A stretch of 44,256 nucleotides of DNA, taken from the NCBI GenBank assembly GCA_003990765.1, contig RBNJ01000070.1:1-44256 (forward strand), read 5' to 3'. This stretch comes from Jimgerdemannia flammicorona. Its lineage: Eukaryota. Made by a program: the position numbers and the translations under genes. Under the pieces are notes generated by a model. The model worked only from the letters and a program-made list of their open reading frames with translations. It did no database searches and was not told where the DNA came from. Shown one piece after another: positions 10 to 38,355 of this stretch. Every line of letters starts with the position of its first letter. The first letter of the stretch is position 1.

Positions 10-63
<54 letters not shown>
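1..63 (+). repeat. Poly(A) tract, probably the tail of a non-LTR retrotransposon inserted into the 5' LTR of element A
   Basis: A-run directly abuts sequence matching the interior of A's 3' LTR (~15273 onward), where no poly(A) exists. Confidence 0.6.
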
Positions 64-68
<5 letters not shown>

Positions 69-214
69 ATCACTCACAGATATCCAGCTTTGACTATTAT
101 ACCACTAAATACCAAGAACATTTTGTTGCTTTTGACAAAGTAACTGGGGGCTTAAGCCAAACTATATTAACCCCCAATCTTGTAATTTGCTTCTATTGAG
201 TCAGGCATATTATA
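64..214 (+). repeat. 3' end of element A 5' LTR
   Basis: Direct repeat of the end of the 3' LTR (tcaggcatattata vs tcagatatattaca). Confidence 0.9.
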
Positions 215-216
215 TT

Positions 217-233: not shown

Positions 234-782
234 AGATTTTAAAAAAAATTGATGTGACTTTTTAGCTCATAAGAACCCACAGTCAAACTGGATATATTTG
301 ATATAACACCAATCTCTGCCACAACAGAAGAACTAGTTATTACCAGTATTTGGACAGGAAGAGAAGTAATCACCTTAAGACTTACCAACTATCCAATATC
401 AGAAGGATCTCAATCAGAAACCAGTATAGCCCAAAATCCTCAATCAGAGCAACTAGACAACATAGGTAGCCCTGCTAGAGATCTTGAAGAACTTGCACAA
501 GAACTAGAAGATCTCATTACATAAGTCTGAGATCTTACAACCAGATACTCCATATCAGTTCCACCAATTTTTCCCAAAGAATTCTTATCACTAGCTCTTG
601 TAGAACTGGAAGTAGCTCCTATAAGAATACCTAAACTCATTCTACTTCGTCCAAGGTCCAGAACACTATCCTCAAGATACCCAAGCACTCCTATCTCTGG
701 TAATAGTTCAGAAAGTGAATCAGAGTCAGAATCTGAATCAAAATCTGGACCAGAACCAGAATTAGAAGAAAGTGATGATGAA

Positions 783-3700: not shown

Positions 3701-4707
3701 TCCTCAAGATCTATAATTTAGAAGAAGACATCCTAGCTCTCATCAGACATACAACCTGTTAAGGATAGATAGAGGATACTACTAACTTCATGGAAGCCCT
3801 AGACCCTACAGGAAGAAGAGAAATCAACTATCTCTGAGATTTCTCTACTGGAGCCAGATGGCCACACCTCAACCTCAGAGCCTAGAGACTCTCTGCTAGT
3901 GAAGCTTTAGCCCTAGAATATCCCAAACTCAGCAAGAATATTGTCCAGTATACCCTACTCCATCTCAAGGCCAAATCCCTGACTAAAGCCCACCTGGAAG
4001 ATATAGAATATAATCTTCACAGTCTGGAGAACAAATCTATCAAGCCCAAAAAAACATTCATGATCAGAACTAGACTAGCCATACAACCACCCCAAGGAGC
4101 TTACATCCAACTAACCTTAAGGTCTGGACTTATCAGATAAGGAATAACCATAGAAAGAGAAACCATTGACCCAGGATATATAGGTGAAATCAAGATCATT
4201 CTATACAACAGTAGTACAGAATGACACTAAATCATTAGAGGACAGAAGATTGCCCAAGCAGTTTTCATGAAGATCAAGACTCCACAATTACAAGAAGTCT
4301 CCAAATTGACTGAAGGAACAAGACAAGCCAAAGAATTTGGAAGTTCAGACAAGAAGGAAGTATATCTCCTTCAAGTCAATCATCTCAAGAGGAATACTCT
4401 CCAGCAAGTATACTACCAGCTAGTCAAACTGTACAAAAACCTCATCCTGGAGCCTGGAGAACAAACCACCTTTGAAATCTTTACACCACCTAACCCCAGA
4501 AACCTTTTCTTTAAACCCAATGAAGATATCCCATATCTGGATATAGAAGGACACACCTTCCCTGACAAGATGAACCCAGTATACTCCCAAGCAACCAACC
4601 AAAGTTGGGAAACCATCATCTTGCTGAAAGGAACCATCATAGGACATCTGGTGCCTTTTTTCAACTAAACTTATAGAGAAGTTTATGAACTAAACCTATC
4701 AGGAAAT
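783..4707 (+). pseudogene. gag-pro-dut: Element A ORF1: Gag capsid, zinc knuckle, aspartic protease, Cys/His-rich accessory block, dUTPase, dUTPase-like domain
   Basis: MAILLLTFTGYPEEDSREFL capsid start. Decayed knuckle YFYYGQFRHYTTKC (~1650-1690). ILIDTGAAICII (~2330). dUTPase remnants RSGL, IDPGYIGEIK, IAQ, EFGSS (~3940-4350). Confidence 0.85.
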
Positions 4708-4748
4708 GGCAAAAGGTCTCAGAAGAAAAGAAAGGCCCCTCTGCGACC
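4701..4748 (+). promoter_or_regulatory. Decayed -1 ribosomal frameshift signal of element A
   Basis: AGGAAAT at 4701-4707 (CpG-decay form of GGGAAAC) plus stem ggtctcagaag/cctctgcgacc; RT continues in the -1 frame. Confidence 0.7.
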
Positions 4749-6169
4749 CAGAAGATAATGAAGCCTTCCACCAACATTGGAGAAAAATTGATACTTCAAC
4801 AATGGCAACAACTAGTAAAACTCCTCAAAAAATATCAAGATATCTTCACCACTGATTATAGCAACCTACTATACAACCCATTATATCACTATAGCATAAA
4901 TATAAGAAATGCAATATCCATTTGACAGAAACTTTATAGAATACCCCATTACTTAAAAATATTCAAAAAGGAGCATATTTAAGAACTCTTAAACAATAGA
5001 ATCATCTGACCCTCTACCAGCCCCTGGGCCAGTCCTATACTTATTGTACTAAAGAAAGGAGGATGGAGACTCTGTGTAGATTACAGGAAACTCAATTCAG
5101 TCACTAAAAAGGATATCTATTTTTTGTCCATAATTGATGACCTCTTGGATCAGTTACAAGATATCAGATACTTCAGCAATATATACCTTTTTACAGAATT
5201 CCATGAGATCTCCATGGACCTCAAAGACATTCAAAAGACAGTCTTTCTTGCTCTAGGAAAACTGTTTGAATACCTCTGAATGCTCTTTGGACTTTGCAAT
5301 ATACCTCCCACCTTTCAGAGGATGATAAATTCAGTTTATATCCTCTTGAACCACTACTACCTGATTATATACATAGACAATTCTAACATCTATTTAGCAA
5401 ATTTTGAAGAATATCTGTACTACCTAGAAGAATTCAAGCTCATCTGCAAGAACCATCTGAGACTCAATATAAAGAAATGCTACTTCAGGAAACAGAAACT
5501 TGAATTTCTTAAATTTATAGTTTTGAAAGAAAGAACCCATGCAGACCTAAAGAAAACCAAAAAGATCAATAATTGACCAATATCCAAGACTCTGAAGGAA
5601 ACACTATCATTCCTGATACTAGTATCCTACTACAGAAGGTTTATCAAGAACTTCACCCAAATTGCTGTCCCAATCTGAGTTCTTCTCAAGAAAGAAGTAC
5701 CTTATAAATGGACAGAATCCTAAGAGAAAGCCTTCAAAGAACTCAAGAACTACATGACTACAGCACCAATTCTTGTATACTCCAATCTACAGAAGCCATT
5801 TATCTTATATATAGATGCTTCTAAAGATAGCCTAGGAGCAGTTCTAGCCCAAGAAGGGCCTGACCAACAATACCATATAATAGCTTATATAAGCTGAGCT
5901 ATCAAACAGCAGCAGATGAACTATGGTAGCATCAAACTGGAATACCTTGCAGCTATATGGGTAGTCACTCTGTTCAAGTATTATCTTATTGAAAAAGATT
6001 CACTCTGATCACAGACCATATAGCCCTCAAATGGCTATTCAACTATAAGGAATCTACTGAAATCCTGGCCTGCTGGATCCTTATCCTTCAGGATTACAAA
6101 ATCACCATCATCTACAAAGCAGGGAAAGCCAACAACAATATTGATGTACTTTTCTGTTAGCCCCAATGA
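4708..6169 (+). pseudogene. pol: Element A reverse transcriptase and RNase H
   Basis: SPWASP, RLCVDYRKLN, FGLCNIP, YIDN (decayed YIDD), YIDAS, ITDH. Confidence 0.9.
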
Positions 6170-6303
6170 ACCAGAAGAAGGGTGTCTCAAGGAACTATAC
6201 TCCAAAGGAAGCTCCTCAGACCATCAAGGCACAAAAAGATCTCATCTGAAAAGAACATCAGAAAGCTCACCAAGAACAAGCAAAAATAGAAGAAAAGTTG
6301 TGA

Positions 6304-6835
6304 CAAAGTGTCCTTCGCATGAAATGTATGTGAGATATATTATGCTAAATCGAGTGTGCTGATATAAGCTGGGTCGATGGGTTTGGTGAATATGGAAGCA
6401 TGTACTTCCCAGGTCTGCCATTCATATAAAGCAAAGAGGCTGCATATTTATTATTTCTCCTCCAAAAGGAAAGGGTGGAATGGGTTGCATAAACTGATTG
6501 CAGGAACTAACTAAGTATATAGGTATAGTCTATGTGCTTAATTGTTAAGATGTGACATATACTCAGTCGCTCAGGGGGATATTACATGTAATGCATACTG
6601 AAACATTGCTAAGCTATTTGTCACTGACATCTTGCCAGAGAACTGAGACTAGGCTAACATTGCATAAGAAACCACACAACGGGACCTGAGACTAAGCTAA
6701 GATTGCATAAGAAATGGTGTAGCAGGGAACTGATACTAAGCTAAGATTGTATAAAAGACCTGAAAGATTGTATGATAGTGGTTTTTTCATGGCTTCAGTC
6801 ACTTTGCCGAAGTTTGAGCTATGTTTATAACTCTA
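6304..6835. mobile_element. ~530-bp non-autonomous repeat, copy 1 (Helentron/Helitron2-like structure), inserted in A integrase
   Basis: Homologous to 15797-16317 and 16318-17791. Removing it restores the integrase frame without a TSD. Internal 3x ~43-bp subrepeat. Confidence 0.7.
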
Positions 6836-7129
6836 AAAAATATACCAATATTAGCCCAATCTCAGAATACAAGTTTAGAACATACTTAAGAAATATAATA
6901 CCTACCAGAAGTACTAAGGAAGGAAGAATTACCAAGTATCACTACAATTAATCACACCACCAAACAACATCTTTCAGAGATAGGGAGTAGATATAATTGG
7001 ACCTTTACTAGTTATACCAAGAAGAAACAAGTATATTCTTGCAGACACATCTTTCTCCAGTATCATTCAGGTTATACAACCTTTGGAAAGTACTTATAAC
7101 ATCGTTTTTGGAGAAAAGAGACTAATAAT

Positions 7130-9153
7130 ATGGTGACCGACAGGCAATCTGAGGTGCATATTGGGCAGGGTGGCCCAAGTGCTTTTGACTGGCAGCAGGT
7201 GGAGAGGGGTCCAGGCCTGGGGGGGGGCATGAGGGGGCTGCTGGTGGGTGGATATAGAAGGGGTGGAGGTAGTGGTGGAGGCCAAGGGTCTGGGAGGGCA
7301 AGCTTTGTGAAGATAGTGAAGGAGAGACAGCAGGCATCAAGGCTGGAGAGCTGGCTGAGGAAAGGCAAGGAGACCAAGAAGGTAGCAGTACATGAGAGAG
7401 TAGCCCTTGGAAGGGGGGGCAGTGGAGCTGAGAGAGTAGCAGCTGGGGGGAGTGTGACTGCTGATAGTAACAAGACTGCCAATCTGGAAAAAAATCCAGA
7501 TGTGACAGCTAATGGCGAGGCTGAGCAGCTGAGGCTTGGAAGACAAGGAGATTTGGTGGATGGTATGACAGGCCTAGCAGTAGCCCTGTTACTCAAAAAA
7601 TCGATCTTGGCATTTGTGGTCACACTGTGCTTCTGGGGCTTAGTGGTGATGGTGAAAATGGTGCTGGGGCTTATCACTAAGCAGGTGGTAGGAGCTGCAT
7701 CAATGAAGTTTTGAAGGGACTGGAGGGAGTGGAGGTGGGTTTTGAGGAGGCTGGGTCACTGGAGGAGGTACTGAAGGTTGGATTGGTAGTTGGAGAGGTA
7801 TGTGTTCTAATGGCACATTGCCTGAAGTAGGATCCCAGGGTGGTCCAACTGCTGGTGAAAGGAGTGTCCACGGTGATGGCAGTGGAGACAAGAAGGAGAG
7901 TTAAGGAAGTCATGGCAGAATATGGAGAAGTGGTGGATATCAGATTCAGGGTTTGGGAAGGGACCTCACTCAGGACTGGTGATGTGGATGTGAGGATTCA
8001 GCTGGCTGAGAAAGAAGCTACCAGAAAGGTGAGGGACTGGCCTTTGGTAATAGTCTGGGGAGTGATCTTGTGCAAGATGACTAGGGTGAAGGGAAGTGAG
8101 GAGGAGGAGGAGGATTTATTGGAAGTGCTAAAAGAGTTGAGTGGGGCTGTGGAGCAGCAAGCAAAGGCTTGGGAGGCTTTTGTAGAGTCGACACACTTGG
8201 AGGTGGTGGATGGAAAACAGATTCAAGTGGACGAGGAGCAGTGGGAAAGGGCTCAGGGGTGTAAGAGATAGAAGGAGCTACTGGCTAAGCTAGAAAGCAG
8301 ACCATTGAAGGATGTGAGCAAGATGAAGAGCACAGGGGGGACCAAAGTGAGTGTCTGGGCTGGTGAGGGGGGTGGGAAGGCTGGGAAGGCAATAGGGGAG
8401 GATAAGAAAAAGCCTGGTAATGACCCATATGCTGATGGTACAATGGAGGTTTGGGAGGTAGACTGGGAGGACTCCCCTACCCCTACCCCTCTTATCAGGC
8501 GAGGCCCAGCTTCCCAAAACAGGGTGGTGGAGGATGTGTCAATGCAGGGGGCCCAGAGGGTGCAATTCAGAATTCTAGAGGTGGTAAATGGGGGACAAGT
8601 GGTGGCAGCTGGAGAGGAGGAACTGGTGGATATCCTGGAGGTATGGAATGAGTCTGCAAGCACTGGGACTGATACCACAATGCTGGATAGAGGGAGGCCA
8701 GTAACTCTGAGTAGGAAGGAGATGGGGAACCTACTTTAGATGTGCCAGATAATGAATAACCTAGTAGCAGAAGAGTTGGGGGAGGTGGACTTGAGAGTAA
8801 TGAGTGATGAGCATTGGGTGTAGATACTGCAGGGAGATGGAGTGATGAAGGCATTGAAGGCAGAAATTCTTATAGTGTATCTGGAGGAGGAAGGGTATGA
8901 GGTGGATAAGGAGAGAGAGGCAGAGATAGCAGTCATTGCTGGGGAGAGGGCTGAATACTGCTGGAACAAGCATTATAGATTGCAGCTCTCGCAGGAGGCC
9001 TGCCTAGAATACCAGGAGGAGTTTGAGGAGAAGGCAAATAGGGAGATGAATAACCTGCTGACTGGATTGGAGGCTCAGAGGGCTGAAGAGGAGGAGGTGA
9101 CTGCAGAACATAATCTGGACATAGTACAGGAGGAGATGAACATAGAGCAGTAG
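7130..9153 (+). pseudogene. LINE ORF1 (Gly-rich N-terminus, RRM-like segment, acidic C-terminus), frameshifted
   Basis: LLVKGV...MAEYGEVVDIRF...RTGDVDV RRM-like pattern; position upstream of ORF2. Confidence 0.65.
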
Positions 9154-9171
9154 AGATCAATTGATAACATA

Positions 9172-12100
9172 ATGTATTTCATTATGAACAGTACAACCAA
9201 CATTTTTTCTTTAAATGTGAATGGGTTACAGGGCACTGCTAGATGTAGGAACATTTTTACTTGGATGAAGGGATTGGAGACCGATCTCTTCCTCTTACAG
9301 GATATCAGGTGTGAGGATGATTCTGATAGGATGGAATGGACAAAGAAATGGGAAGGTGTGGTGATTTGGAAGAGCAAGGTTGGGATTCTGGTTCAGAAAG
9401 GCAGAGGGGAGATAAGGGACATGAGGAGCTGGGGGGAGAGACTGGTATGGGGCAAGTGGATTCGTGCAGGCTGGGAGCCAGTTACTATTGGCTCCTGTTA
9501 CTATCCTGCTGTATGGAGTGAGCATGTAGATTGGGTGAAAGGTCTCCAGGAGAGTGGGATCCTTGCAGAGACTGAGGTGGATATGCTTGGGGGAGATTTC
9601 AATATGGTTCAGGATATACTGATAGATAGAATAGATGGAGGATGGAGTGCTGAGAGCAGGAGTGGAGGGCTGGCAGTATGGGAGGAAGTAGAAAGACTAA
9701 GTGCACTAGTAGAAGCTGGTAGAGAGTACTGGGGGGAAAGGTGGGTTTATATACATTAGGCAGGGGGCCTGGAGACAAGGATTGACTGGATCCTGACAGC
9801 CAGTTGCTAGGGCCTAGATGTTTGGAAATCACTGGAGGTGGAATGGTGTCTATGGTCAGATCATTGGGGGTTTTTGGGACAGGGGTGCTTTGGAGGAAGT
9901 GGGGATGGGCCTAGACATTGGTGCCTAAATTCCTCTTTGTTAGATGATAAAACCCAGTAGGATGAGTAGGCTAAAGACATTCAGCTGAGGGTAGAGAACT
10001 GGTGGTAGGAAGGTGCCTCAGTTGGGGTTTGGTGGATGAGGATGAAAGAGATGACCAAGATTTACTGGAGTGAGGCTGGCAAGGAGGCAGGGAAGCAGAG
10101 AAGGTGAAGAGTGCATTGGGCTTCTACTAGATTGGCAAGGCTCCTGGAGGAGTGGGTAAGGCTGATGATGCTGGTGGAAGAAGAAGATTGGAGATTAATG
10201 AGGGTGAAGATGGAGGTTGGGGAACTACAACAGGTGCTGTGGGAAGAGGAAGAGGCAAGGGTACAAAGCTTGGCAGCATAGCTTCATTGGCAGGATCTGG
10301 AGGAAGGAGAGAGACCTTCCAAGTTTCTTATGAGGGCCCTTAGGGCAAGAAAGATATAGCAATAGTGGGAAGGGGTACTTGACTCAGATGGTATACTAGT
10401 GCATGGTGTACAGGACATTCTTGGATCATTGAAGGAGCAATGGAGTGGATTGTGGAGTGAGGAGGAGGGTGGGGCAGATGCTGCTGCCATTGACCAAACA
10501 TTGGAGAATTGGTACCCACCACAAGTAGAGGGGCTAGATGATCTAGTGATACCTGTACAGGAGGATGAGATCCACTAGATTCTTGTCATGACAATACCAG
10601 GTATGGCACCTGGGGAGGATGGTCTGCCCTGGGACTTCTGGAAGTGAATGGTTGGAGTCTTAGATGTGATGAGAGAGATGATGGCATTGTGTGACTTTAT
10701 CCTACAGATAGGGAGATGGGTGGGGGAGCAGGATCTTAGGCTGGTGATGCTGCTTTATAAGAACAAAGGAAGGCATGAGGATTGGAAGAACTGGTGACCA
10801 ATAATGTTGCTAGATATGGACAGAAAGTTGGTGACTAAGGTGGTGGTTGCAAGGCTACAGAAGGTGGCCCAGCAAGTTGTGAATATTAAGTAGAGGGGAT
10901 TTGTAGGTGGTCAGCTCATTAGGGATGGCACAGCCTGGGTACATGGAGTTATTGAAGAGGCAAAGGCCTGTGGACTGAATGGGCATCTAGTCTTCTTAGA
11001 CCAGGAGAAGGCTTACAACTGGGTGTGATGAGTCTAGCTAGTAAAGGTATTGGATAGAATGGGAGTTCTATGCCAATTCTGGTCAGCAATAGTCAGCCTA
11101 CTGGAAGGGAGTAGGGCTGCACTCATATGTAATAGACATAGAGGAGTAGTATTCCCCTTGGGTAGGGGGGTACCCCAGGGGGGCCTGCTATCTCCCATTT
11201 TGTATGCTCTTTCCCTGGAACCCCTAATGGACAGAATTAGGTAGAGGATAGTGGGGCTCTATGTCTTTGACATTGGGTGGAAAGTTGGGGCCTTTGCAGA
11301 TGATATGGTGGTTGGTTTGGGATCGATTGCTGATGTCAAGGAGCTTAAAAAGACAGTGGAGTAGTATGAGGAGAACTCTGGGGCTAAGCTGAATTGGCAC
11401 AAGTGTGAAACAATGATGCTAGGCAACAGCCTGGTGAGAGGAGAGATTATAGGAACAATTGTCCCCACTGGTGAGGCAGTGCAGTACTTGGGCATCTATT
11501 TGTCAGTCTATGGGTCAGTTCTGCCCAGGCTTTGGTAGGAGCAGAGGATTGGAATCTGGGAGGAAGCCCTACAGGGTTGGGGGGGAAGACACTTCTCTCT
11601 AGCAGAGCAGGTCTTGATTTTGAATATCTATTGGCTGCCAAAGTTGTGGTATCTGGCTTATCATCTGGACTTCTCAGCCTAGGTGGTGAAGAGATTGATG
11701 AAGTTGACAAAAGGATGGATTTGGGCTGGCAGATGGAGTCAGATTGGCTGGGAGACCTTGTTCTTACCAGTGGCAAGAGGTGGTCTTGGGCTGGTTGACT
11801 TTCCGAAATAGCTACACTGCTTGAGAGCATGGTGGCTAAAGAGGGCAGTAGATTTGAGAGGAGGTGGTTGGGTTCCCCTACTGTAGAAGATCTGAGAGAG
11901 GCAGTTATCACCTAGAGGCTCAACTGGTGATCTCCTCTTATTGGTTGGACTTTGGAGCACTGAACAACTATAATATAAAGAATTTTTATGGGGAATAGCA
12001 GAAGGGGTATACTGCATTGGAATTTGTTGGCAGGAGAATGAAGGGGAGATGGCTTGGGACCCAGTGATATGGAGATGGGATCATATACTGCTGGGTGGTA

Positions 12101-12800
12101 CCTCTTTAATTGAGTTCGACATTGGAATGCCAAAGAGGACTGGGCCAGGATCTGTGGCCTAGTGGTTGGCAAGGAGTTGGAATTGGAGAAGAGTGGAACT
12201 GGTATAGTGTTTGGACCTGAAGTGCCACAGTGAGGAAGTGGATGCCACTGAAGTACTGAGTGGTCTGGTGGTGCATACTGCAGAGGAATGTAATGCTCAA
12301 CTTTTACTTGGGGCACCTTATCATAGGGAGTTGCTTTGACTGTAAGGAGTGCCATAATGTAGGGCAGAAAGGGGGTTATATACAGATGCCAGAACATTGG
12401 CTAGAAGAGTGTGAGGTATTGGGGGACTTTTGGTGGACCATTGGGGATCGCTTGTGGGTAAGGTATAGGGGAGATGATATATGGGGGAGGTGGGAGGACT
12501 TGAGAGATCAATTGGTAGGGGGGGTAGGAAAGGAGTAGCTTACTTTAGGCTGAGCTTTGGTCATTTGGGTGGGGCTGGCCAGTCACTGGCTATTTGTTTT
12601 TGAGGATAGGAGGAGACAGGGCTTGGGGGACCAGTTGTTGCAGTAGCATAGTCTTATGGAAGACACCTTGACAGGCTGGTGGCTTGGTTGGGGATGACAG
12701 GGTGGTTAGAGGCACTGCTTGATGGAGAAAATCTGTGGACAGAGTGGGGAGAGAGTTGGAGTAGTTGGTGAGAGGGTGATCTTTATTTATGAGGAGGTGG
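9172..12800 (+). pseudogene. LINE ORF2: AP endonuclease, reverse transcriptase, C-terminal zinc finger
   Basis: SLNVNGL, LLQD, GGDFN, RIDW, SDH; PGEDGLP, LDQEKAY, GVPQGGLLSPILY, AFADD; CFDC...EHWLEEC. End approximate. Confidence 0.92.
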
Positions 12801-12888
12801 GGAGGAGCTCCTCTATGGGGATTGGGTAGTGGGTGGTGATAATGTATACTTATTCATAGACTGGTAATAAAGACAGAGTCCAAGTGAC

Positions 12889-12919
<31 letters not shown>

Positions 12920-13653
12920 CAAGTATATTCTTATATTTATAGAACATCTGATCAAGTGGCCTGAGGCTTTTCCAATAGAAATCACAGATGTCTTAACCAT
13001 TGTAGGTCTTCTCCATAGACTTACACTCAGATATGGACCCCCAGAAGAACTCATCTCTGACTGAGATACAGAATTCGTCAACAATATAATTACAAGTTAT
13101 ATCTGAATTCACAAGATCTGCCTTAAATGAACTACATCATACCACCCCCAGACCAATGACATGACAGAAAGAATAAATCAGACTATCAAGAAAGAACTTG
13201 CCTGAGTCAATCCTACCAACTGAGATCTCTGCTTACCTGAGATCCTATGGGAAATTCAGAACACTCCTGCTGTTTCTACCAAACAAAAACAATTTAAAAT
13301 AATATTTGTCAAGAAAACCAGAACTACTGACCATGAGAATCTTGGAGACCTCCTTAAGAAGACAGAACAGTTACATAATCAGACCTGAGTTCAGATTACC
13401 AAAGCCCAAGAAAGACAAAAGAAGTACTATAACCAGAAGTAAAAGGATCAGGAGATCAAGATTGAAGATCAAGTACTAGTCTAGAGAAGCATGATTGAAA
13501 CAAACTTTGCTACCAAATTGGAGCCCAAATGAGAAGGACCTTATCTTATATATAATATCAGAGAGACCAGTATCTATTTAAGAAGTATAGATAGATGAAC
13601 TCTGAGAACACCAGTATACATCAATCATCTCAAGATATACCTCTCCCCACATC

Positions 13654-14169
13654 ATGAATCAGAGAGTTGACAATTATCTTCAGACTCTTATCCTTAGCTC
13701 ATTTCAATCACTGTCAGTTCCCCTACCCCAATTCCAAGAAGTCAATGGAAATATCCTCTAGAAAATTCAGATTCATCAAGAGAATCTTGTTCTGGTCAGA
13801 TGATTGCTACAGGTCCATCAACTTTAGACCCATTATGCAATTGGAGAACAATTGCAGAACCTCCCAGTCTCAGAACAAATATATATCAGAAATACCACAG
13901 GACTATCAAGGAGAGATATCACTGCTGTAGACAGGCTCTATATCCTTTATAAACAAAACCCTGCAGCTCTGATACAAGCAAAATTCTTCTGGTATAATGT
14001 ATGGGGAATGAACCTAGCCATCTATATGAGCATCATCAATACTGTCGAAATCCTATTTCTAGAAGAAGAAGAAGAACCCCTAGAATGGAGCAACTATGAT
14101 ATAGACAATAAAGATGATAGAACAGGTATTGATACAGAAGATGCCTATCTATACTGAGATGATAACTAA
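13654..14169 (+). pseudogene. Element A extra ORF after integrase (accessory gene family shared with the LTR ORFs of B and C)
   Basis: MNQRVDNY...HQL*THYAIGEQL...TAVDRLYILYKQNPAAL...acidic tail; one frame, stops are transition-type. Confidence 0.65.
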
Positions 14170-14199
14170 AGGAACAGACCATCCTTTAGTGGGAGCTGA

Positions 14200-15423
14200 T
14201 GTGATACACCAAAATATACCACTTAAATTATAACTCAGATAACATGAATATATAGTATAGTAACCAGACACAGCAACCATTGCTGCAGAAAACTATATAA
14301 ATAGTCAGACTACCAGATAAGGTATATCTGTATAGGACTTACACACCTATGTCAGATCTATATACTTGTGCTGAACCTGTACAACTTACTATAAGTAGCA
14401 AATCTATAGTTAGCCATATAGTAATCAGATAGCAACTACAATATATAAAATACTCTAGAGATAAGAGTGAATAAACCTCAGTCTAAATTAAATCTAAAGC
14501 AAAAGTTAAGTCTACCTACTATACTTTGAGAGGAACTCTATAGTCACTGCTAGGAGATTGTGAGTAAAGTATTTATTTTTACTCTAGTCCACTTTCTGAT
14601 ACAAAGAAGAGTTTGAAGAACTTTACTGCCTTTTGAGAAATCTACCACTTAAGGAATAAACTACTATATTTTAGTTTGTTTGTCAGATAAGTCTGAAGAT
14701 TTGCTGCCCAAGTTTAAGGAAAACTTCACTACTATTTCCAAGTTATCTATATTCCCAAAAAACCCAATCCTTATCACCAAGCCAGTCTATTTGATGTAAC
14801 TTTGCAGTGGAGCCAGTCTATGATATAACTCTATATAAATAAAGCCAGTCTTTAATATAACTTATCAAAAATCCAAGTTATTAGTTTGTTCCAAGTGAGC
14901 TTAATTCAGGAAGAATTTACTACCGGTATTATTTCCAGTAAGCTACTGATTCAGGAAGAATCCATACCATTCTCTATTCCTAGTAAGTCTGGTATAGAAG
15001 AATCTATGATATTTAAGAAGTCTACTAATTTAAAAGAATCTGTACCCAAATTAAGTTATCTGCCAAATCACACTATTATCCAGAAATTACATACTTTTGG
15101 AGGTTGCTATACTATACAAGAGATCATCATGCAGAAATCATATACTTTTAGAGATTGATACTCAAGAAGGAAAACTACTAAATTACTAGACCATTATGTA
15201 TAAAGAATACCTATACCATATATCCAAAATCACTGCTATACCCAGAGAACCATCCAAATTAGGAAATTGACATATAAATTACTTACAGATATCCAGCTTT
15301 GACTATTATATCACTAAACACCAAGAACATTTTATTGCTTTTGACAAAGTAACTGAGGGCTCAAGCTAAACTACATCAACTCCCAATCTTGTAATTTGCC
15401 TCTATTGAGTCAGATATATTACA
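14200..15423 (+). repeat. Element A 3' LTR (~1.2 kb)
   Basis: TGTGATAC...TATTACA ends; purine-rich AGTGGGAG just upstream; TATA-AATAAA-TCAGT at ~14442-14483. 5' boundary inferred. Confidence 0.75.
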
Positions 15424-15796: not shown

Positions 15797-16317
15797 AAAG
15801 TGTCTTTTGTATGAAATGTATATAAGATGAATTATGCTAAATCGGGTATACTGATATAAGCTGGGTCAATGTGTTTAGTGAATATAAAAATATATACTTC
15901 TCAGGCCTGCTATTGAAGAGACTATATATTTATTGTTTCTTATTCAAGAGAGAAGGGTGGGATAGGTTGTATAAACTGATTACAGAAACTAACTAAGTAT
16001 AAAGACATAGTCTATATACTTGATTATTAAGATATGATGTATACTCAGTTGCTGAGAGAGATATTATATATAATATATGCTAAAATATTACTAAGCTATT
16101 TGCTGCTGGCATCTTGCTAGAGAACTTAGACTAGACTAATATTGTATAAGAAACAGTATAGCAGGAACTGAGACTAGACTAAGACTATATAAGAAATAAT
16201 ATAGCAGGAAACTAATACTAAGTTAAGATTACATAAATAATCTAAAAGATTATATAATAGTGATTTATCTGTAGTTTTGGCCACTTTGCTGAAGTTTGAC
16301 CTATATTTACAACTCTA
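15797..16317. mobile_element. ~530-bp repeat, copy 2
   Basis: Colinear with 6304-6835; head-to-tail with copy 3. Confidence 0.8.
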
Positions 16318-17791
16318 CAAAGTATTCTTTATATGAAATATATATAAGATGTATTATAATAAATTAGATGTACTAATGTAAACTAGATCAATGGGTTTAG
16401 TGAATATAGAAGCATATGCTTCTTAAACCTGCTATTTATATAAAGTAAAGAGACCAATGCTGCAGATCTGGGGAGTGGTCAGGCTCCTAATTCAGATACT
16501 ACTAACTACTACTACTGGCCAAACCCATGGCCTGCTAGTAATTAGATAGAGGGGCATACTATTATAACTATAGTTGTTCAAGATAAGATATAGTATAAAT
16601 TACAAATATAATAAAGAAAAGCCACCAATTTCCAGTGGTCTGTCAGTTGAATGATATAGTCAGGATAATTAGTTAAGGCTAACAGAATGGCTTCATTAAT
16701 GTGAAAGAAGTGACTATATATATCATAGACCAGTAAGATACCAATCAAGAGAGACTATATAATATCAATGAAAGTCATTTGAGAGAGCAGTTGAGATGGG
16801 CCCAGATAGAAGACCAGGTCTTCTGAGTATTCAAATCATATTATTGATAGTAGTATATAAATAGTCAAATTTGAAATGATATATCTGCTAGATTAGATTA
16901 AAGGTTATACTATTCTATATAGTGAGTTTATCAACTTATATGAGACTATAGAAAGAAGAGCAAGCAGTCACTCAAATAGTGGTACCAAATGATATATGTA
17001 TCTAGTTATAATATACTATAAATAGTCTATAGATATTGATAGGTAATGGAGCAATAGTCATATAGATGAGAGAGTGGTGGAGAGAAGTCTGAATAGACTT
17101 AAGAATAATATCAAAGAATAGTAGTGCTGAGTTTTGTAATTGGTGGGCTACTTGATAATTAGCTATGTTATAAAAGTAGTTCTTAATAATGATATAAGGT
17201 TTTTCTTTACTAATAAGCCATAGTATCCAATGGCTTAATAGGTCATCTTGTAAGAGAATAGCAGTTACTTCAAGAATATTATAGGAGTTGAGAAAGTGTT
17301 GAAGAGAATTGATACCTGAGCACAGATTATCAGTCTGAGTATAGAATTACTAATAGAGATATATGTCAAATTTATGGCAAAGCTAAAGAGAAATATAATC
17401 AAAGTAGATAGAAGTTCTTAGAGATAGAAAGAAAGAGTATAATGAGATAATAGATCAGCAGAGTTTAATGCAGAGAGGATATACTATATATATTTAATTA
17501 TTAAGATGTAATATATACTCAGTTACTGAGAGAGATATTATATATAATATATACTGAAATATTGCTAAGCTATTTACCACTAACATCTTGTCAGAGAACT
17601 GAAACTAGACTAATATTATATGTATATATATAAAAAATAGTATAGCAGAAACTGATACTAGGCTAAAATTATATAAGAAATAGCATAGTAAGAAACTGAT
17701 ACTAAGCTAAGATTGTATAAATAATCTAAAAGATTGCATGATAGTTAGCTTTGGCCACTTTGCTGAAGTTTGAGCTATATTCATAACTCTA
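16318..17791. mobile_element. ~530-bp repeat, copy 3, with ~1 kb extra internal sequence (16456-~17483)
   Basis: First ~140 bp and last ~305 bp match copies 1 and 2. Confidence 0.75.
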
Positions 17792-17990
17792 ATATATTTT
17801 TTAAGCTGATGAGAAATCTGTATACTAATAAATGAATAGTCAACATCATATATCTGAGGTTATATTATTCAAAATTCAATATGCTATCCTTTTCTTTGAG
17901 AATAATAAAAACTTATTGGAGGACAATGTATCTATGTAAGCTATCTGATGCTTGTGAAGAATTTAATTAATAGCAGAAGCACAATTTGAT

Positions 17991-19306: not shown

Positions 19307-20344
19307 TTACGGCATCACAACAGCCATTACAACGCTGACAACAACCGCTAACCCGACCGCCACCACTACCATTGCAAAGGCTATCAACACATATCCCAAC
19401 CAATGATTTTCTTCCTCAAGCCTCGTCGGTCTATGTATCCCAGCAAGGATCAACGCTTCTAACTCCCGCGCCGCATCCATAACCATCCGATCATTCTCAC
19501 CCAACGGCACAACCTCGACCCCACCACGCTCCGCGTTCACACAAATGCAAGCCACTACCGCCAAAGCCGCTTTCGCCTGGCGTGCAACGATACCACGATA
19601 TTCACGCGCCCGCCTCTCGACCTCCTCACGCGTCCGTCTCACAGCCTCCTTCTTCCTTTTGCCCTTGAGTTTCAAGTCGTAATGCGTCGTGGCCACTACA
19701 GCAAGGACACCGGTGCGGGAAGCAAACACTGCTGTACCTTCTTTCATCCCGATACTTGTGGAGTTGCGTTCCAAATGAAGTTCGTAGAAAAAAGGAAACC
19801 CTGAGAGGATCTGTTTGAGGATCGGTTGGCTTGGCCCAATGCCACAAAACTGGTATCTTCCGGAGCTCCAGAATAGTATCGGTCTCAGAAAGACGATTGG
19901 TTTCAGGTGGTTTGCAATCAGACGGTGCATGACGCTGTCCTTGTCGAAGGCAATGCCGTTCAGTTGCCGAAGCTGTTCCCAGTGATTTGCAATAATATCT
20001 CTCTCGGAGCGTTTGACCTCAACGTTCCACTCCAATGCTATCTCCAGAACAGTTCTGCCGACACGACGGGTCTCCTGCTGTTGCCAACCGAACTGGTAAA
20101 CGAGTTTCCCAGCCACCGCGACAGCGGTCAGGCTCGTGCTTGTCTGGCTACTGAAGCGCCGAATTATCGCCTCGAACACCGTGCCGAATACACCACGGTC
20201 GCTGGCCATCCCGAAAGTAGACGCGTGCTCGGAAAATTGGAAGCCATAGTCGGCCAGAGCCGCGAGGTGGAGGCGGCAGAGATGGAGGATCAGCTCTCTT
20301 GAGCGAGGGTGTTGCCAAAATGAAGCCAACGTACTATCTGGCAT
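19307..20344 (-). CDS. Uncharacterised ~345-aa protein with C-terminal transmembrane helix (tail-anchored); probable 5'-UTR intron 20382-20479
   Basis: Long open frame in CpG-normal DNA; first ATG at 20344; GTGAGT donor, CTAAC branch point and TAG acceptor upstream; hydrophobic C-terminus WLGYVLIAFAMVVVAVGLAVVVSVVMAVVMP. Confidence 0.75.
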   Translation of the reverse strand: MPDSTLASFWQHPRSRELILHLCRLHLAALADYGFQFSEHASTFGMASDRGVFGTVFEAIIRRFSSQTSTSLTAVAVAGKLVYQFGWQQQETRRVGRTVLEIALEWNVEVKRSERDIIANHWEQLRQLNGIAFDKDSVMHRLIANHLKPIVFLRPILFWSSGRYQFCGIGPSQPILKQILSGFPFFYELHLERNSTSIGMKEGTAVFASRTGVLAVVATTHYDLKLKGKRKKEAVRRTREEVERRAREYRGIVARQAKAALAVVACICVNAERGGVEVVPLGENDRMVMDAARELEALILAGIHRPTRLEEENHWLGYVLIAFAMVVVAVGLAVVVSVVMAVVMP

Positions 20345-20472
20345 GAGTGTGGCAAATGAAATGGGAAAAGGGATGATTTGGCTATCACCAGTCAATGTCC
20401 ATGAAGGGATAGCACGTTAGAGACACGTCATCACTCGATTAGACAATCTATTTATAATTTTTTACATCACAC

Positions 20473-20880
20473 AACTCACTTTCGCTCAGTCCGTCACCTC
20501 ACAGTTTTTTTGCTCCCACCCGCCTCCCTCTTATACGAGTTCTTCTCCGAACTAACTAATGCAACGCATTCGAGACAGAAACATTCCTCATGCATGCATC
20601 CGCCCAAAATAAATCACACATCCATGTTATCGAGTAGTGATGCGGGGATTTAACGTCTTTCTTTCGCCTACACTTCGTTTAATCCCCGTCTCACTACTCA
20701 TGATAGGATAGATAGAGAATATCTGTTTTATTTTGGGAGAATGCGTGCATGAGAAATGTCTGTCTCCAATGCGTTGCAATCAGTCAGTTCGAAGAACCCG
20801 ACATGAAAGAAGTGTAAAAGAAGAAGGAGGTGGGTGGGAGCGAAAGCCGTGTAATGGCGGATTGAGTGGAAGAATAAGTT
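20473..20880. repeat. ~410-bp degenerate inverted repeat (foldback) with a 24-bp central stem
   Basis: 20632-20655 pairs with 20676-20699 (21/24); outer arms also align, e.g. gcaacgcattcgagacaga vs revcomp gcaacgcattggagacaga. Confidence 0.9.
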
Positions 20881-25490: not shown

Positions 25491-27021
25491 TGTCATATAG
25501 TGGTCACTGAGTTTTTCAAATATACCAGATTCTCTTCAAGGTGTATCTCTTAGACTAACTCAAGTTTGTTATAAGTAAGTTCTTATTAGAGTACCTTTCC
25601 AAGGTCTTATAGTCCTCAAACTTCTTATCTTTAACTATCTTGTTATCTCTTAGATTGCTTGCAAGGAAGTGTGTATAAGTGAAACTGGAACTAACTTTAT
25701 TTCAGAGGAAATAAGAGGAGTATTTATACAAAATATAATTCAATAGTTGCTAAGATATAAAGCTAAATATAAATTCCAAAACTAAAACTACTAAGTTTCA
25801 GGGTCAGCACTGATGGTTGTACAGGTTTAGAATGCTGATATAATTCAGTATCACATCAGAATACTGGTGCTGGAACAATTTCGCATCACCTCAGAATGCC
25901 AGTACTGGCATTATCTAGTGTTATATGAGAATATCGGTGCTGGCATTATTTAGTGTAATAAGGAACTTAGAGCAGAAAGTTCAGAACCAGGGGGGCTTCA
26001 TCCTCATCATCATCATCATCATTGAAGGAGATGAGATCCACAAATTCATTATTTTTGTATGCTTTGATGTCATATGGGATAATGTCATCACTGATGACAT
26101 CATCATGTTTGGTGGCAGGAAAAATCAGGAACAAGATCTGGAGCTCTCCAGTCTATGAGGTTCTCTTCCACAAAATAGGGGACAAATGTGGGGTCTTGGG
26201 GAGATTTAACCCAGATACTTAGGCCTTAGAATACTGAGATCAACCCTTACAGGAATTGGTCTGGGTTATCCTGGAGGATAGGGTGCCAGAAGTCTTCTAC
26301 TTCATCACTATTGAGGGTGATAGTGGACTGGGCTTCTGTAGCCACTCTGGCTTCTAGTGCATTGATATGGCAGGATGATAGGTCTCTGAAATCTGAGCCT
26401 CTAATATACTCCAAGTTGGGGATTGACCATAGTGCATACCTGAAGATCTGATGGATCTTCTTAGCTATTCTTGTTTTGTGTATATCCATAGAAGTGGCAT
26501 CTTGTAGCTCTTGAGTGCTGGCCTGTAGGAACTCCCAGCAGAGGAGGTTTCCTATTTTGTACTTCTGCTACATTTGGAGGCATTTGGTAGCAATGGTGAT
26601 TCTTGTTTCATTTTACAGTGGTAGAGGATAAAGTGATAGGGATCTGCAGTACCCAGGTTGATACTAGGAGTCCTTCTTGAGTGGGTCCTCATAGCTCTTC
26701 TGATGTCTTGGAACATTCTTTCTTCAACTGAGATGCCTTGGTAATTCCTTGACCTTGAGGTTTGGTGAGCAGCAGGCATTTTATTTGTGATAAGTCTTTG
26801 AGCTATTTTGGGATTGGTGGTTCTTATTGGTTGCTGCTACTGTGGTTCCTTGATCCTTCTTTTATATTCTTCAGGATGCTTATACTGTAATCACAATGAC
26901 TTACAGTTGGTCATCATTGCTCATCTCATATGCCATATGATCTCCTTATACTCTGATCTGATAGCTTGCAAGGAAAGGTTGTCTCCTATACTGATGTCAT
27001 CATTCTGAGGTCACCATTACA
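25491..27021 (-). repeat. Element B 3' LTR (1531 bp)
   Basis: Direct repeat of 32714-34280; TG...CA ends. Confidence 0.95.
25967..26779 (-). pseudogene. LTR (U3)-encoded ORF, 3' LTR copy
   Basis: MPAAHQTSRS...; joins ORF-track pieces 26552-26779 and 26247-26489; small frameshifts. Confidence 0.75.
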
Positions 27022-27031
27022 TCTTCCTCCT
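27022..27031 (-). promoter_or_regulatory. Polypurine tract of element B
   Basis: AGGAGGAAGA immediately before the 3' LTR TG on the minus strand. Confidence 0.85.
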
Positions 27032-27334
27032 GAATAAGGATCTTCTCAAGCATCCTTATTCATTGGTCCAGTCTTGAAAAATTTGCTGATCCCATAACCT
27101 CTGACAAGGGGTCGAAAAGTGGTATTTATGGGCTGGTGTCTTTCCTTTGTATTTTGGTGTGATGGTGAAGGGTCGCTCTCTTCATATAGAGCAAGGGCCT
27201 GATTCTGATCTTGACCAATCAGTTGATGGTTCAAACTCCTCTGACTTTGAAAGTCTCATGGATGAGTAGTTGCCAGTGCTGTATCTCTTAGAGAATGGTC
27301 CAGACAGATAGCCTGCTGGTCACAGAACATATTG

Positions 27335-28576: not shown

Positions 28577-28601
28577 GTTGAATAGTCTTGATGAGAGTGT
28601 T

Positions 28602-32713: not shown

Positions 32714-34280
32714 TGTCACATAGTAGTCACTGAGTTCTTCAAATATACCAGATTCTCTTCAAGGTATATCTCTTAGACTAACTCAAGTTTGTTATAAGTA
32801 AGTTCTTATTGGAGTGCCTTCCCAAGGTCTTATAGTCCTCAAACTTCTTATCTTTAACTGTCTTGTTATCTCTTAGATTGCTTGCAAGGAAGTGTGTATA
32901 TGTGAAACCAGAACTGACTTTATTTCAGAGGAAATAAGAGGGGTATTTATACAAAATATAATTCAATAGTTGCTAAGATATAAAGCTAAATATAAATTCC
33001 AATAACTAAAACTACTAAGTTCCAGGATCGGCACTAATGGTTGTACAGATTAAGGATGCTGGTATAATTCAGTGTTATATCAGAATACCAGTGCTGGAAC
33101 AATTTCGCATTACCTCAGAATACCAGTGCTGGCATTATCTAGTGTTACATAAGAATACTGGTGCTGGCATTATTTAGTGTAACAAGGAACTTAGAGCAGA
33201 AAGTTCAGGACCATGGGGGCTTCATCCTTGTCATCATCATCATCACTGAAGGAGATGAGATCTGTAAATTTGTCATTTTTGCGTACTTCAATGTTATGCA
33301 GGATGATGTCATCACCAATGACATCATCATATTCAGTGGCAGGGAAATTGGGAACAAGATCTGAAGCTCTCCAGTCTATGAGGTTCTCTTCTACAAAATA
33401 GGGGACCAGTCTATGAGGTTCTCTTCTACAAAATAGGAGATAAATGTGGAGTCTTGGGGAGATCTAACCTGGATGCTTGGGCCTTGGAATACTGAGATCA
33501 ACCTTTGCAGAAATTGGTCTGGGTTGTCCTGGAGGATAGGGTGTCAGAAGTCTTCTACTTCATCACTATTGAGGGTGATAGTGGACTGGACTTCTGTAGC
33601 CACTCTTGCTTCTAGTGCATTGATATGGCAGGATGACAGGTCTCTGAAATCTGAGACTCTAACATACTCCAAGTTGGGGATTGACCATGGTACATACCTG
33701 AAGATCTGATAGATCTTCTTAGCTGTCCTTGTTTCGCATATATCCATGAGAGTGGCATCTTGTAGCTCTTGAATACTGGCCTGTGGGAACTCCTGGCAGA
33801 GGAGGTTTCCTATTTTGTACTTCTGCCACATTTGGAGGTATTCAGTAGCAATAGTAATCCTTGTTTCCATTTCATGGTAGTAGAGGATAAAGTGATAGGG
33901 ATCTGCAGTACCCAGGTTGACACTAGGAGTCCTTCTTGAGTGGGTCCTTATAGCTCTTCTGATATCTTGGAATATCCTTTTTTCAACTGAGATGCCTTGG
34001 TGGTTCCTTGACCTTGAGGTTTGGTGAGCAGCAGGCATTTCATTTGTGGTAAGTCTTTGAGCTATTTTGGGATTGGTGGTTCTTATTGGTTGCTGCTACT
34101 GCAGTTTCTTGATCCTTCTTTTATATTCTTCAGAATGCTTGTACTATGGTTACAATGACTCATAGTTAGTCATCATTGCTTATCTCATATGCCGTATGAT
34201 CTCCTTGTACTCCAATCCGGTGGCTTGTAAGGAAAGGCTGTCTCCCATGCTGATGTCATCATTCTGAGGTCACTATTATA
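32714..34280 (-). repeat. Element B 5' LTR (1567 bp)
   Basis: Direct repeat of 25491-27021 plus a 35-bp tandem duplication at 33371-33440. Confidence 0.95.
33191..34038 (-). pseudogene. LTR (U3)-encoded ORF, 5' LTR copy (~270 aa reconstructed)
   Basis: 164-aa open stretch, then *HPILQDNPDQFLQRLISVFQGP... and acidic tail FSDDDDKDEAPMVLNFLL*. Confidence 0.8.
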
Positions 34281-35887: not shown

Positions 35888-36094
35888 TGTGACATACGCA
35901 ATTGAAAACAGAGTACTGGTGACTGCTAAGATCAGATGACATAATGGCATAACAATCAAATAGACAGTCTGACCCATTAGGTGATCATTCCAAAAGAAGA
36001 CAAGATGATCTAAGCCAAAATGAAGACCACGTTATTTAAGGAACCATACTCTACCTCAGGGATCAGCACTAAAGAACCAAGTACCCACCACACA

Positions 36095-37081
36095 ATGTCT
36101 CCCATTCGCCGATCCAACCAGACCTCCCACCGCTCTACCCCTTTGCCTAGCCCAAAGACCCTGATCTTTGAAGCTATCAAGAAGGCCATCTGGTGCCCAG
36201 ACACTTCCGAACACTTGAACTTCTATACTGAGGACCTTGGACACTTCATCAACTACCAGTATATAATAACCCAACAGCTCAAAGATACTACTGAATGAAT
36301 GACCCTCTGGCATGACTATGAAATCAGACACCGCCTTCGCAATGAGACTCAAGAAGATGACCAGGAAGACCTCATTGCCAAAATGTTAACCACCAGCTGG
36401 CTAATCAAGAGAGCTCTCCATGTCCACCAAATCTTCTGCCATATTTCCTAGGCTATAGCACACTTGCAAGGAGTAACAGCTGGTAGCCTCTCCCGCCTTT
36501 CAACTGAAGATGCTGACTGGATAGAATCTGAAGTAACCAATGCTATTGGCAGCAACTGCATTACCATAGGAAGCCAACAAACCGAACCTACTCAGCCAGG
36601 TTTCCACACCACCTCACTCTGAGACAACCATCAAGGTCACCTAATAAGTCTTATGGAGATATTCGAAGGACCACCCATCACTATAGAGGCACTCATTGGA
36701 GCTACCCCAACCACCCACCACCCTGTCAGCCACAATTCACACCTCATCATTTGGGAACCGAATCAAGAAGAAGTCCAAGAAGTTCCTGTCTTTGAAGAGG
36801 AGGCCCAAGAACTCCAAAACCCTGCCCCTGAAGAAACCCCCTCTGACACTGAAACTGACGAGCCTTCAGAAGAAGAAGAGGAGCAATAGAGAGTCTACCA
36901 GTCCTCTGTCTGCATTCAAGCTGTTCAAGGGTTGGAGAATGTTGTTGAAGATGACTGGCTACTTTTCTACCCCCTCACCTCTTGGCCGGTGCTTCCCCCC
37001 TTTGAGGAGAGATATGATGAAGAAGAAATCACAACCCAGCAAGATTTGCCCGCCACGGACAAAGGGTACTATTTCCTCTAG
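36095..37081 (+). pseudogene. LTR (U3)-encoded ORF of element C (~328 codons, 4 in-frame transition-type stops)
   Basis: One frame from MSPIRR to KGYYFL*; aligns over ~190 aa with element B LTR ORF. Confidence 0.78.
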
Positions 37082-37105
37082 AGTACTGCCCATCAGCCGT
37101 GAGAA

Positions 37106-37320
37106 CCCAGCTTTTGTCAGCAGGTCTGAATCCAGTGTTGCTACCCAGTACTACTGTTTTCAGCATTTTGTCAGTAGGTCTGAATCCAGCATTGCCACCC
37201 TCCACAACTGCTTCTGGCAACAATCATCGTATCATGTCAGCTCATCCGAATCCAGCGTTGCTACCCAGTACCACCATTTTCAGCATTTTGTCAGCAGGTC
37301 CGAATCCAGCATTGCTATCC
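37106..37320 (+). repeat. Tandem subrepeats in element C U3
   Basis: 4 copies of tgtcagcaggtctgaatccag.rttgc. Confidence 0.8.
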
Positions 37321-37448
37321 CCTACAACCCAATCCGTAGTAAACAATAGCCTGCACCTCGCATCGTGCAAACCAATAGTATGAGTTCACCACAACATAGT
37401 ATACCTTAGCCTTAGTTACACCCTCTCCCCCCATAGCTAGCAAACTTG

Positions 37449-37488
37449 TATAAATAACCCATATTCTTAGAGTGAATAAACCTCAGTC
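37449..37488 (+). promoter_or_regulatory. LTR core promoter / poly(A) module: TATA, AATAAA, TCAGT initiator
   Basis: agagtgaataaacctcagtc identical to 14464-14483 in A; equivalent module in B at 32913-32951 (minus). Confidence 0.75.
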
Positions 37489-37649
37489 AGCTTGTGTTTA
37501 AAAAGTAAAAAGGATTACAAAAGAAACCACTGCCTCCAAGAGACCGGATAAATTCTGAGAACAAGATAACAACCTAGAGCAATGGATCGCTCAGAAGTTT
37601 GAGTTAAAGAATTTTCTCTTACCACGGAAAGAAAACGTTACCTGACTGC

Positions 37650-37875
37650 CGCCATTCGAGACCCGAGACCCAGCCAAGGATTCAAGACCAGACCGCCATT
37701 CGGACTGCCATTCGGACTGCCATTCGAGACCCGAGACCCAGCCAAGGATTCAAGACCAGACCACCATTCGGACCACCATTCGGACCACCATTCGAGACCT
37801 GAGACCCAGCCAAGGATTCAAGACCAGACTGCCATTCGGACTGCCATTCAGACTGCGCATTCAGACTGCCATTCA
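37650..37875 (+). repeat. Nested tandem repeat in element C R/U5 (12-bp ccattcggactg within ~68-bp units)
   Basis: 3x ccattcgagacccgagacccagccaaggattcaagaccagac. Confidence 0.85.
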
Positions 37876-38355
37876 AGATTCAAGATCCAGAAACCCAAGG
37901 ATACCCAGCCAAAGGATACTAGGCCGCCAAAGACCAACCCGCTGCCAATCGAACGACTGCCAGGAACCTTTCAAGATTAACCAAGACGGATGAGCGAGCC
38001 ATCAACCTCCATTTTCCCAACCTACTGCACCATGAACTGCTTAAAGTCAAGACCGTCGCCCGCTTCAAATCAACCGCATATTCCGCTAAAGTTTATCACC
38101 GCTGGCACACCCAAGTAACCACCCTCTGTTAGTAACAACACCTTTTTTCACTGAATATTGAGCCACCATCAATGTCCTGAGCCAACGAACAATCTCTCGC
38201 TAATTATCAATTACCGCATAAATCGAACGAGCCGATCACGTGATCAATGACCTGCGAACGTCACCAATGCATTCAGTTATCCATCGTGCGCTTCACCAGT
38301 GACACACATTGAGCCGTGTAGTTGAAGTTCATTATACATAACTGATGCCACATTT

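What the first reader, a model, noticed from the sequence alone, without database searches (positions are those of the whole stretch)
13654..14200. The same gene family sits outside the LTR in element A: a snapshot of gene capture into U3
Seen: A has an ORF overlapping the integrase stop, with QL*THYAIGEQL (W..Y.IG..L motif), TAVDRLYILYKQNPAAL (cf. RTAKKIYQIFRYVPWSI) and an acidic tail. It ends before the inferred PPT/LTR. A's U3 is only ~280 bp versus ~1.4-1.6 kb in B and C. Inference: moving the PPT upstream of this env-position gene would put it in U3 and duplicate it in both LTRs and in solo LTRs.
Basis: partly seen in the sequence, partly recalled or inferred. Interest (0 to 1): 0.75.

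Follow-up and report, generated by a model that had tools for sequence, protein, structure and literature searches.

The report
Retrotransposon gene inside or outside LTR
One small, unnamed accessory gene family sits just outside the terminal repeat in some jumping-gene families of this genome and wholly inside it in their close relatives, apparently because it is swapped between elements as a cassette, which shows how a gene can come to be copied in every terminal repeat.

Summary
Element A carries a real 171-codon gene (13654-14169), dead in this copy, that overlaps the integrase stop and ends before the LTR. The LTR starts at 14200, and none of 12 full-length sister copies has the gene in its 5' LTR. 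The gene was under purifying selection (net dN/dS 0.12). Three further families found here (D, E, F) bridge the gap: a profile without A scores A at P 1e-5 to 4e-9. On the RT tree each of three sister pairs has one member outside and one inside U3 (A/C, F/B, D/E). But the gene tree differs, and B and C keep sister-type PPTs, so A is not their precursor. Cassette exchange by recombination fits better than a PPT shift; direction is open. The protein is all-helical with an acidic tail, has no membrane segment and matches no family; a transactivator is my best guess (about 45%). The scan noted the U3 gene, and twice the position change, on other pieces of this genome.

The parts
13654..14169 (+). 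Accessory ORF of element A (171 codons; helical core plus acidic, aromatic-rich tail); this copy is broken by four stops
   Evidence: intact natural relatives P0001/P0002; net dN/dS 0.12 [0.07-0.20]
12921..13670 (+). 3' part of A's integrase (resumes after a LINE-like insertion); its stop overlaps the ORF start by 17 nt
   Evidence: stop codon in 38 of 38 copies
13575..13581 (+). TATA-like word 79 nt before the ATG, inside integrase codons; candidate internal promoter only
   Evidence: present in 22 of 22 A copies listed; cannot be separated from coding constraint
14188..14199 (+). Polypurine-tract position of A
   Evidence: directly before the LTR start in sister copies
14200..15423 (+). 3' LTR of A, TG...CA; U3 about 270-330 nt, AATAAA at 14470-14475, long U5
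63..214 (+). Remnant of A's 5' LTR (its 3' end), followed by the primer-binding site; the rest is beyond a poly(A) run and the contig end
   Evidence: 90.7% to 15272-15421; window = whole contig
32714..34280 (-). 5' LTR of element B
   Evidence: 4-bp target duplication with the 3' LTR
33191..34038 (-). Family ORF inside U3 of B's 5' LTR (broken in this copy), TATA-like word 82-87 nt upstream
25491..27021 (-). 3' LTR of element B with the second, broken copy of the ORF
35888..38352 (+). 5' LTR of element C
36095..37081 (+). Family ORF inside U3 of C's 5' LTR (broken in this copy), TATA-like word 58-59 nt upstream

Best explanation
The ORF is a true accessory gene of a Ty3/gypsy-type element and a distant member of a protein family (about 120-150 residues of helices plus an acidic tail) carried at the 3' end of the RNA in at least six element families of this genome. 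SHOWN: it lies outside the LTR in A and D, runs through the PPT in F, and lies inside U3 in B, C and E; each of the three RT sister pairs has one of each state. INFERRED (about 65%): the gene travels as a cassette (leader/promoter + ORF, often with U3) by template switching between co-packaged RNAs. A crossover before the resident PPT leaves it internal; a crossover behind the PPT and LTR start puts it in U3, from where reverse transcription copies it into both LTRs and solo LTRs. A is therefore one state of a toggling system, not the ancestor of B or C. INFERRED (about 45%): the protein is a soluble regulator, most likely a transcriptional activator of its own LTR, made from an internal promoter as foamy-virus Tas is; linkage to its own U3 would then be what selection keeps.
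For: Selection: net dN/dS 0.12 in frame, 0.81 and 1.71 in the other frames (interval); C vs C2 0.17 from one copy. Membership: profile of B-F without A scores six A proteins at P 5e-6 to 4e-9, 0 of 1000 shuffles each; the top 3 of 510 windows of a whole A element all overlap the ORF, and hhalign gives 79% against at most 5% for 49 shuffles; models of A and D show a similar run of helices. Position. RT tree (D,E) 100/99, (B,F) 100/99, (A,C) 98/96; ORF tree groups B, C, D (87/96); B+F rejected in the ORF tree, p-AU 0.031. Cassette exchange: A1/A2 net divergence is 0.00-0.035 across pol and U5 but 0.05-0.18 from the integrase stop to R; net dS 0.84 vs 0.09. An E-type LTR on two contigs keeps nt 1-61 and 1301 onward but holds a foreign integrase end in place of its ORF. 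B shares a 20-nt leader with an outside-LTR D-like metagenome locus. Promoter: TATA-like word 58-87 nt before the ATG in 22/22 B, 22/22 C, 18/18 D copies and both metagenome loci; chance 3.5-6% per 80 nt. No hydrophobic segment; acidic tails in all six.
Against: Direct pairwise profiles A-B, A-C, A-D are not significant; with B+C+D alone A scored only P 1e-3 to 2e-2 in one test; the widened A profile does not find C (about 230 of 1000 shuffles as good). AU tests did not reject A+C (p 0.069) or D+E (p 0.154) in the ORF tree, which has long branches. A1/A2 were grouped by the ORF, so low net pol divergence partly follows from free recombination in pol. TATA-like word in only 1 of 9 E copies, none seen before F, and the pattern was chosen after looking. 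B vs two decayed B-like copies gave 0.50. No functional data; no DNA-binding fold recognised; structure models are weak (pLDDT 54 and 61).
Confidence: 0.6

Rival explanations
1. PPT relocation within one lineage: a new PPT/LTR start upstream of the gene moves it into U3, or loss of that junction moves it out.
For: C and D share a 255-bp non-coding block (about 81%) after integrase; C's PPT and LTR start lie between that block and the TATA, and D has the same ATGTGAC word at the colinear position but without the purine run. F's ORF already runs through the PPT. The block begins in C's last integrase codons, which would favour movement out of U3 in D.
Against: The shared block is far younger than the C/D protein split (33% identity), so it did not travel with the gene throughout. 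B and C have sister-type PPTs. No old PPT is visible behind the ORF in B (by eye). A's protein is not the sister of C's or B's.
Confidence: 0.22
2. Same mobility, different function: the protein counters host silencing or RNA decay (an anti-silencing factor of the VANC type, recalled, or an RNA export/suppressor protein).
For: Elements are almost free of CpG while the host-gene region is not, a sign of heavy methylation; deep alleles on one pol background fit host conflict; LTR-borne copies could act in trans from solo LTRs.
Against: No similarity to a known suppressor. The allele block includes U3, which fits a cognate activator-target pair as well.
Confidence: 0.3
3. A's ORF is an unrelated helical protein that resembles the B/C gene by chance and position.
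Against: Leave-one-out P down to 4e-9; F was found without A and aligns to A at 35-60% probability; the A-like protein P0016 scores P 9e-6 on the B-only profile, 0 of 1000 shuffles.
Confidence: 0.08
4. The ORF is an env-like membrane or fusion protein.
For: Position between pol and the 3' LTR only.
Against: Highest 19-residue hydropathy 0.3-1.1 in all six families, no signal-like N-terminus, no cysteine in A.
Confidence: 0.02

Closest known systems
Sense additional ORFs between pol and the 3' LTR of LTR retrotransposons (review PMC7264820; parts 1-2 of 3 of the text read)
   Same: Sense ORF after pol, present in most copies, conserved, no host homolog found; maize Grande gene23 has its own promoter and a nuclear product.
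   Different: The review's sense ORFs are env-like with membrane segments; it describes none inside U3 in the parts read. This family has no membrane segment and occurs on both sides of the PPT.
MMTV sag in U3 and HIV-1 nef overlapping U3 (PMC12789967; 12 passages read)
   Same: Whole ORF in U3 (B, C, E like sag); ORF running across the PPT into U3 (F like nef); sag can be made from a promoter near the 3' LTR.
   Different: No sequence or fold link; sag is a membrane protein; here the host elements are Ty3/gypsy-type without env and one family shows all positions.
Foamy-virus tas/bet with internal promoter (PMC12789967; passage read)
   Same: 3' regulatory gene with a second, internal promoter; works-like model for the best explanation.
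   Different: No homology shown; transactivation is untested here.
Shared ORF3 pool of bdelloid rotifer retroelements (PMC5408684; abstract and section 3.4 read)
   Same: The same extra ORF type in unrelated lineages through exchange between elements; several lineages with dUTPase.
   Different: Those ORF3s are known enzymes or env; movement into the LTR is not described in what I read.

Membership tests
Ty3/gypsy-type LTR retrotransposon (element A) | Order gag-PR-RT-RH-INT between two LTRs | tested here: met
   Uninterrupted copies; domain names assigned from motifs in the translations (recalled), not from a Pfam hit
Ty3/gypsy-type LTR retrotransposon (element A) | TG...CA LTRs, primer site, PPT, target duplication | tested here: met
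   4-bp duplications readable in 4 of 12 copies
Sense additional ORF (aORF) | [quoted passage not shown] | tested here: met
   22 A1-type copies translated plus 16 further loci
Sense additional ORF (aORF) | Conserved like other element proteins | tested here: met
   net dN/dS 0.12, equal to integrase
env / env-like ORF | Transmembrane segment and signal peptide | tested here: not met
   hydropathy maxima 0.3-1.1
env / env-like ORF | Spliced subgenomic mRNA | not testable with these tools
   only contigs of uncertain kind were available
The B/C U3 protein family | Direct profile-profile homology A vs B or C | tested here: inconclusive
   0.4-9% probability; profiles are shallow
The B/C U3 protein family | Detection by a family profile built without A | tested here: met
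   P 5e-6 to 4e-9, 0 of 1000 shuffles; hhalign 79% vs at most 5%
The B/C U3 protein family | Trp of the W..Y.IG..L motif | tested here: not met
   0 of 38 copies; E and F lack it too
The B/C U3 protein family | Same fold | tested here: inconclusive
   similar helix order; both align to one 61-residue segment of 3v42_B in the sequence register, Z 3.9 and 4.2, rmsd 3.0, which is weak
Retroviral transactivator (Tas-like), works-like | Internal promoter before the gene | tested here: inconclusive
   positionally conserved TATA-like word in B, C, D; no transcript start data
Retroviral transactivator (Tas-like), works-like | Binds and activates its own LTR | not testable with these tools
   needs a reporter or binding assay
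MMTV Sag | Type II membrane protein, sequence homology | tested here: not met
   no membrane segment; no Pfam match above cut-off

The most novel reading that the evidence does not exclude
These elements are 'complex' retrotransposons with an undescribed transactivator that has its own promoter, comes in alleles matched to its U3 target, is traded between chromodomain-bearing and other Ty3/gypsy lineages, and has entered U3 three times independently, so that many solo LTRs are self-contained regulator genes acting in trans on the genome's elements.
Probability: 0.25. Interest if true: 0.85.

Novelty: new variant of a known kind. Interest (0 to 1): 0.6.

Why it matters
LTRs are treated as non-coding, and how sag or nef came to lie in U3 cannot be watched in retroviruses. 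Here one family shows outside, straddling and inside states in three sister pairs, with thousands of candidate matches per family, plus a case of foreign DNA swapped into U3. That makes the route and direction of U3 gene capture testable by comparison alone, and it names a new protein family to assay.

Tried and rejected
Direct hhalign A vs B, C, B+C, B+C+D: not significant. Subfamily A2 as an in-LTR sister of A: no, same outside layout wherever flanks were held (16 loci). B's reading frame between integrase and PPT as a second family member: rejected, 56-859 of 1000 shuffles as good in 19 of 20 tests. The C/D shared block as a gene (dN/dS 0.63-1.5) or known RNA (0 Rfam matches): rejected. Pfam: nothing above cut-off. 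PDB sequences: 0. Fold searches: best Z 5.0 and 5.1, no Foldseek hit under E 0.001; this does not show a new fold. Atlas: 0.87 and 0.91 with few shared features, leads only. Viral contigs: none. Wide protein searches gave only 5-11 unnamed metagenome proteins each; my recollection of similar proteins in other early-diverging fungi was not borne out by any search. A search with P0009 returned only family D again. RNA: no RNA holder listed; contigs of two runs of uncertain kind cover the LTR more than the body of B, which copy number or DNA explains equally. Literature searches listed no report of this family or of a U3 ORF in such retrotransposons; listings only, open-access library only. The host organism was not determined.

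Full report
Setting. The window is a whole contig of a 231-Mb eukaryotic assembly. Its repeats are almost free of CpG while 18-22 kb is not. It holds three Ty3/gypsy-type elements: A (plus, 63-15423, interrupted by a LINE-like insertion), B (minus, 25491-34280) and C (plus, from 35888). Domain names rest on motifs that I recognised in translations. The host was not determined; earlier notes of this scan call it probably fungal.

The observation. An ATG at 13654 overlaps the integrase stop by 17 nt, and the frame closes at 14167-14169; both stops are present in 38 of 38 copies compared. The window copy is dead (four stops), but intact 171-172-residue relatives exist in metagenome proteins. Because A's 5' LTR is cut by the contig end, I fetched 12 full-length sisters: no 5' LTR matches the ORF, 6 of 12 LTR pairs start within 6 nt of window position 14200, 5 start further in and 1 failed, and four show target duplications. 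The LTR is 14200-15423. The 'W' is not real: 29 CAG, 8 TAG, 1 CAA, no TGG in 38 copies.

A real gene. A second subfamily (A2) has the same layout. Net divergence between 23 A1 and 12 A2 copies (three A2-side loci left out: two without full integrase, one third allele) gives dN/dS 0.12 [0.07-0.20] for the ORF and 0.12 [0.05-0.22] for integrase; the other frames give 0.81 and 1.71.

Is it the B/C family? B and C are homologous (97-99%). A against either is not significant (0.8-1.4%, shuffles up to 2.6%), and against B+C+D only borderline. Profile searches then found more families in the genome: D, E and F, F being found by a profile without A. With B-F as the profile, six A proteins score P 5e-6 to 4e-9, 0 of 1000 shuffles each; the three best of 510 windows across a whole A element overlap the ORF, hhalign rises to 79% against at most 5% for controls, and a diverged A-like protein scores P 9e-6 on B alone. 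Against this, the widened A profile still misses C, and two short A-like fragments score weakly. Models of A (pLDDT 54) and D (61) show a similar run of helices and align to the same 61 residues of one solved chain in the sequence register, at low Z. I put membership at about 90%.

Position across families. D: ORF about 1 kb behind a chromodomain-type integrase, ending at the PPT; 800-bp LTR pairs exclude it in 5 of 8 contigs (3 complete), 2 had no pair and 1 was a larger duplication; a metagenome locus has the same end-at-PPT layout. E: inside 2.0-2.1-kb LTRs. F: starts about 70 nt after integrase, runs through the PPT and stops about 20 nt inside a 450-470-bp LTR. The RT tree pairs D with E, F with B and A with C, all well supported: each pair has one outside and one inside member, so at least three changes of state. 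Of 30 B loci, 21 held a complete LTR and 4 of these are solo LTRs with target duplication.

Route. Instead B, C and D form a 31-38% subfamily and A, E, F are 12-19% outliers. B+F is rejected in the ORF tree (p 0.031); A+C (0.069) and D+E (0.154) are not. B has F's PPT and primer site and C's junction resembles A's, so the junctions look resident. Exchange is visible directly: on a nearly identical pol, A1 and A2 differ in one block from the integrase stop to the poly(A) signal (net dS 0.84 vs 0.09), and an E-type LTR on two contigs carries a foreign integrase end in place of its ORF between fixed ends. Template switching between co-packaged RNAs (established retroelement biology, recalled) explains both. 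Evidence for the rival remains: C and D share a block upstream of the gene, with C's junction behind it and a junction-like word at the same place in D; that could be a junction gained in C or lost in D.

Function. No membrane segment or signal, no Pfam, PDB, fold or Atlas assignment. All six proteins end in acidic tails with scattered aromatic residues, the pattern of acidic activation domains (recalled). A TATA-like word lies 58-87 nt before the ATG in 22 of 22 B, 22 of 22 C and 18 of 18 D copies in which the start could be located (of 30, 30 and 21 loci), against 3.5-6% by chance, but in only 1 of 9 E copies. In A it falls inside integrase codons, and re-initiation at the overlap is equally possible. 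With the ORF-U3 allele block this favours a Tas-like activator (45%) over an anti-silencing factor (30%); neither is shown.

Comparison and novelty. Extra ORFs after pol are known (PMC7264820, parts 1-2 of 3 read), as are shared ORF pools (PMC5408684, abstract and section 3.4) and U3 genes and internal promoters of complex retroviruses (PMC12789967, passages). Six searches listed no report of this family; closed papers and supplements were not seen. The scan noted the U3 gene often in this genome and the position change twice, once as unproven (summaries only, the first of which led me to PMC7264820). New here are the bridged homology, the three sister pairs and the evidence for exchange. Verdict: real, new variant of a known kind, interest 0.6.

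Noticed in passing
window 7070-12920: A LINE-like element (endonuclease and RT motifs by eye, poly(A) at about 12890-12920) is inserted in A's pol; uninterrupted copies have only about 195 nt between window 6300 and 12920.
   Followed up: no
window 6305-6843, 15797-16436, 17478-17792: Three to four copies (75-80% alike) of an unidentified 300-540 bp repeat, one inside A's pol.
   Followed up: no
window 20543-20796: A 250-bp imperfect inverted repeat (72%) in the CpG-normal region, upstream of the 369-codon ORF at 19307-20416 (minus), which has no Pfam match above cut-off.
   Followed up: no
window 34858-35890: AT-rich tandem array of about 63-68 nt units between elements B and C.
   Followed up: no
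L178:941-2375 and 5736-7257; L131 (minus): E-type LTR whose ORF slot holds a C-type integrase end and spacer, with like breakpoints on two contigs.
   Followed up: partly
L170:482-736; L139:460-712: 255-bp non-coding block shared at about 81% by families C and D right after integrase; a packaging or dimerisation signal is possible; no Rfam match.
   Followed up: partly
window 27000-27370 (minus): B has a frame of about 120 codons running through its PPT to a double stop at the same place as F's ORF; not related to the family; selection untested.
   Followed up: partly
L103:1940-2340; L017 (minus); L168:3450-3780: Further decayed family members (H after a chromodomain-like integrase end; G, B-like); position relative to the LTR not fixed.
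   Followed up: no
L108:3330-3830 (minus): A third ORF allele on the A pol background, about 25-30% divergent from both A1 and A2.
   Followed up: partly
A, B and C insertion sites: 4-bp target duplications are mostly ATAT, ATAC, ACAT, CTAT-type words; D shows 5-bp duplications.
   Followed up: no
window 14455-14490 and 37440-37490: The TATA/poly(A) core of C's LTR is 87% identical to F's and A's is about 75%, although F's RT sister is B: LTR cores are also exchanged.
   Followed up: partly
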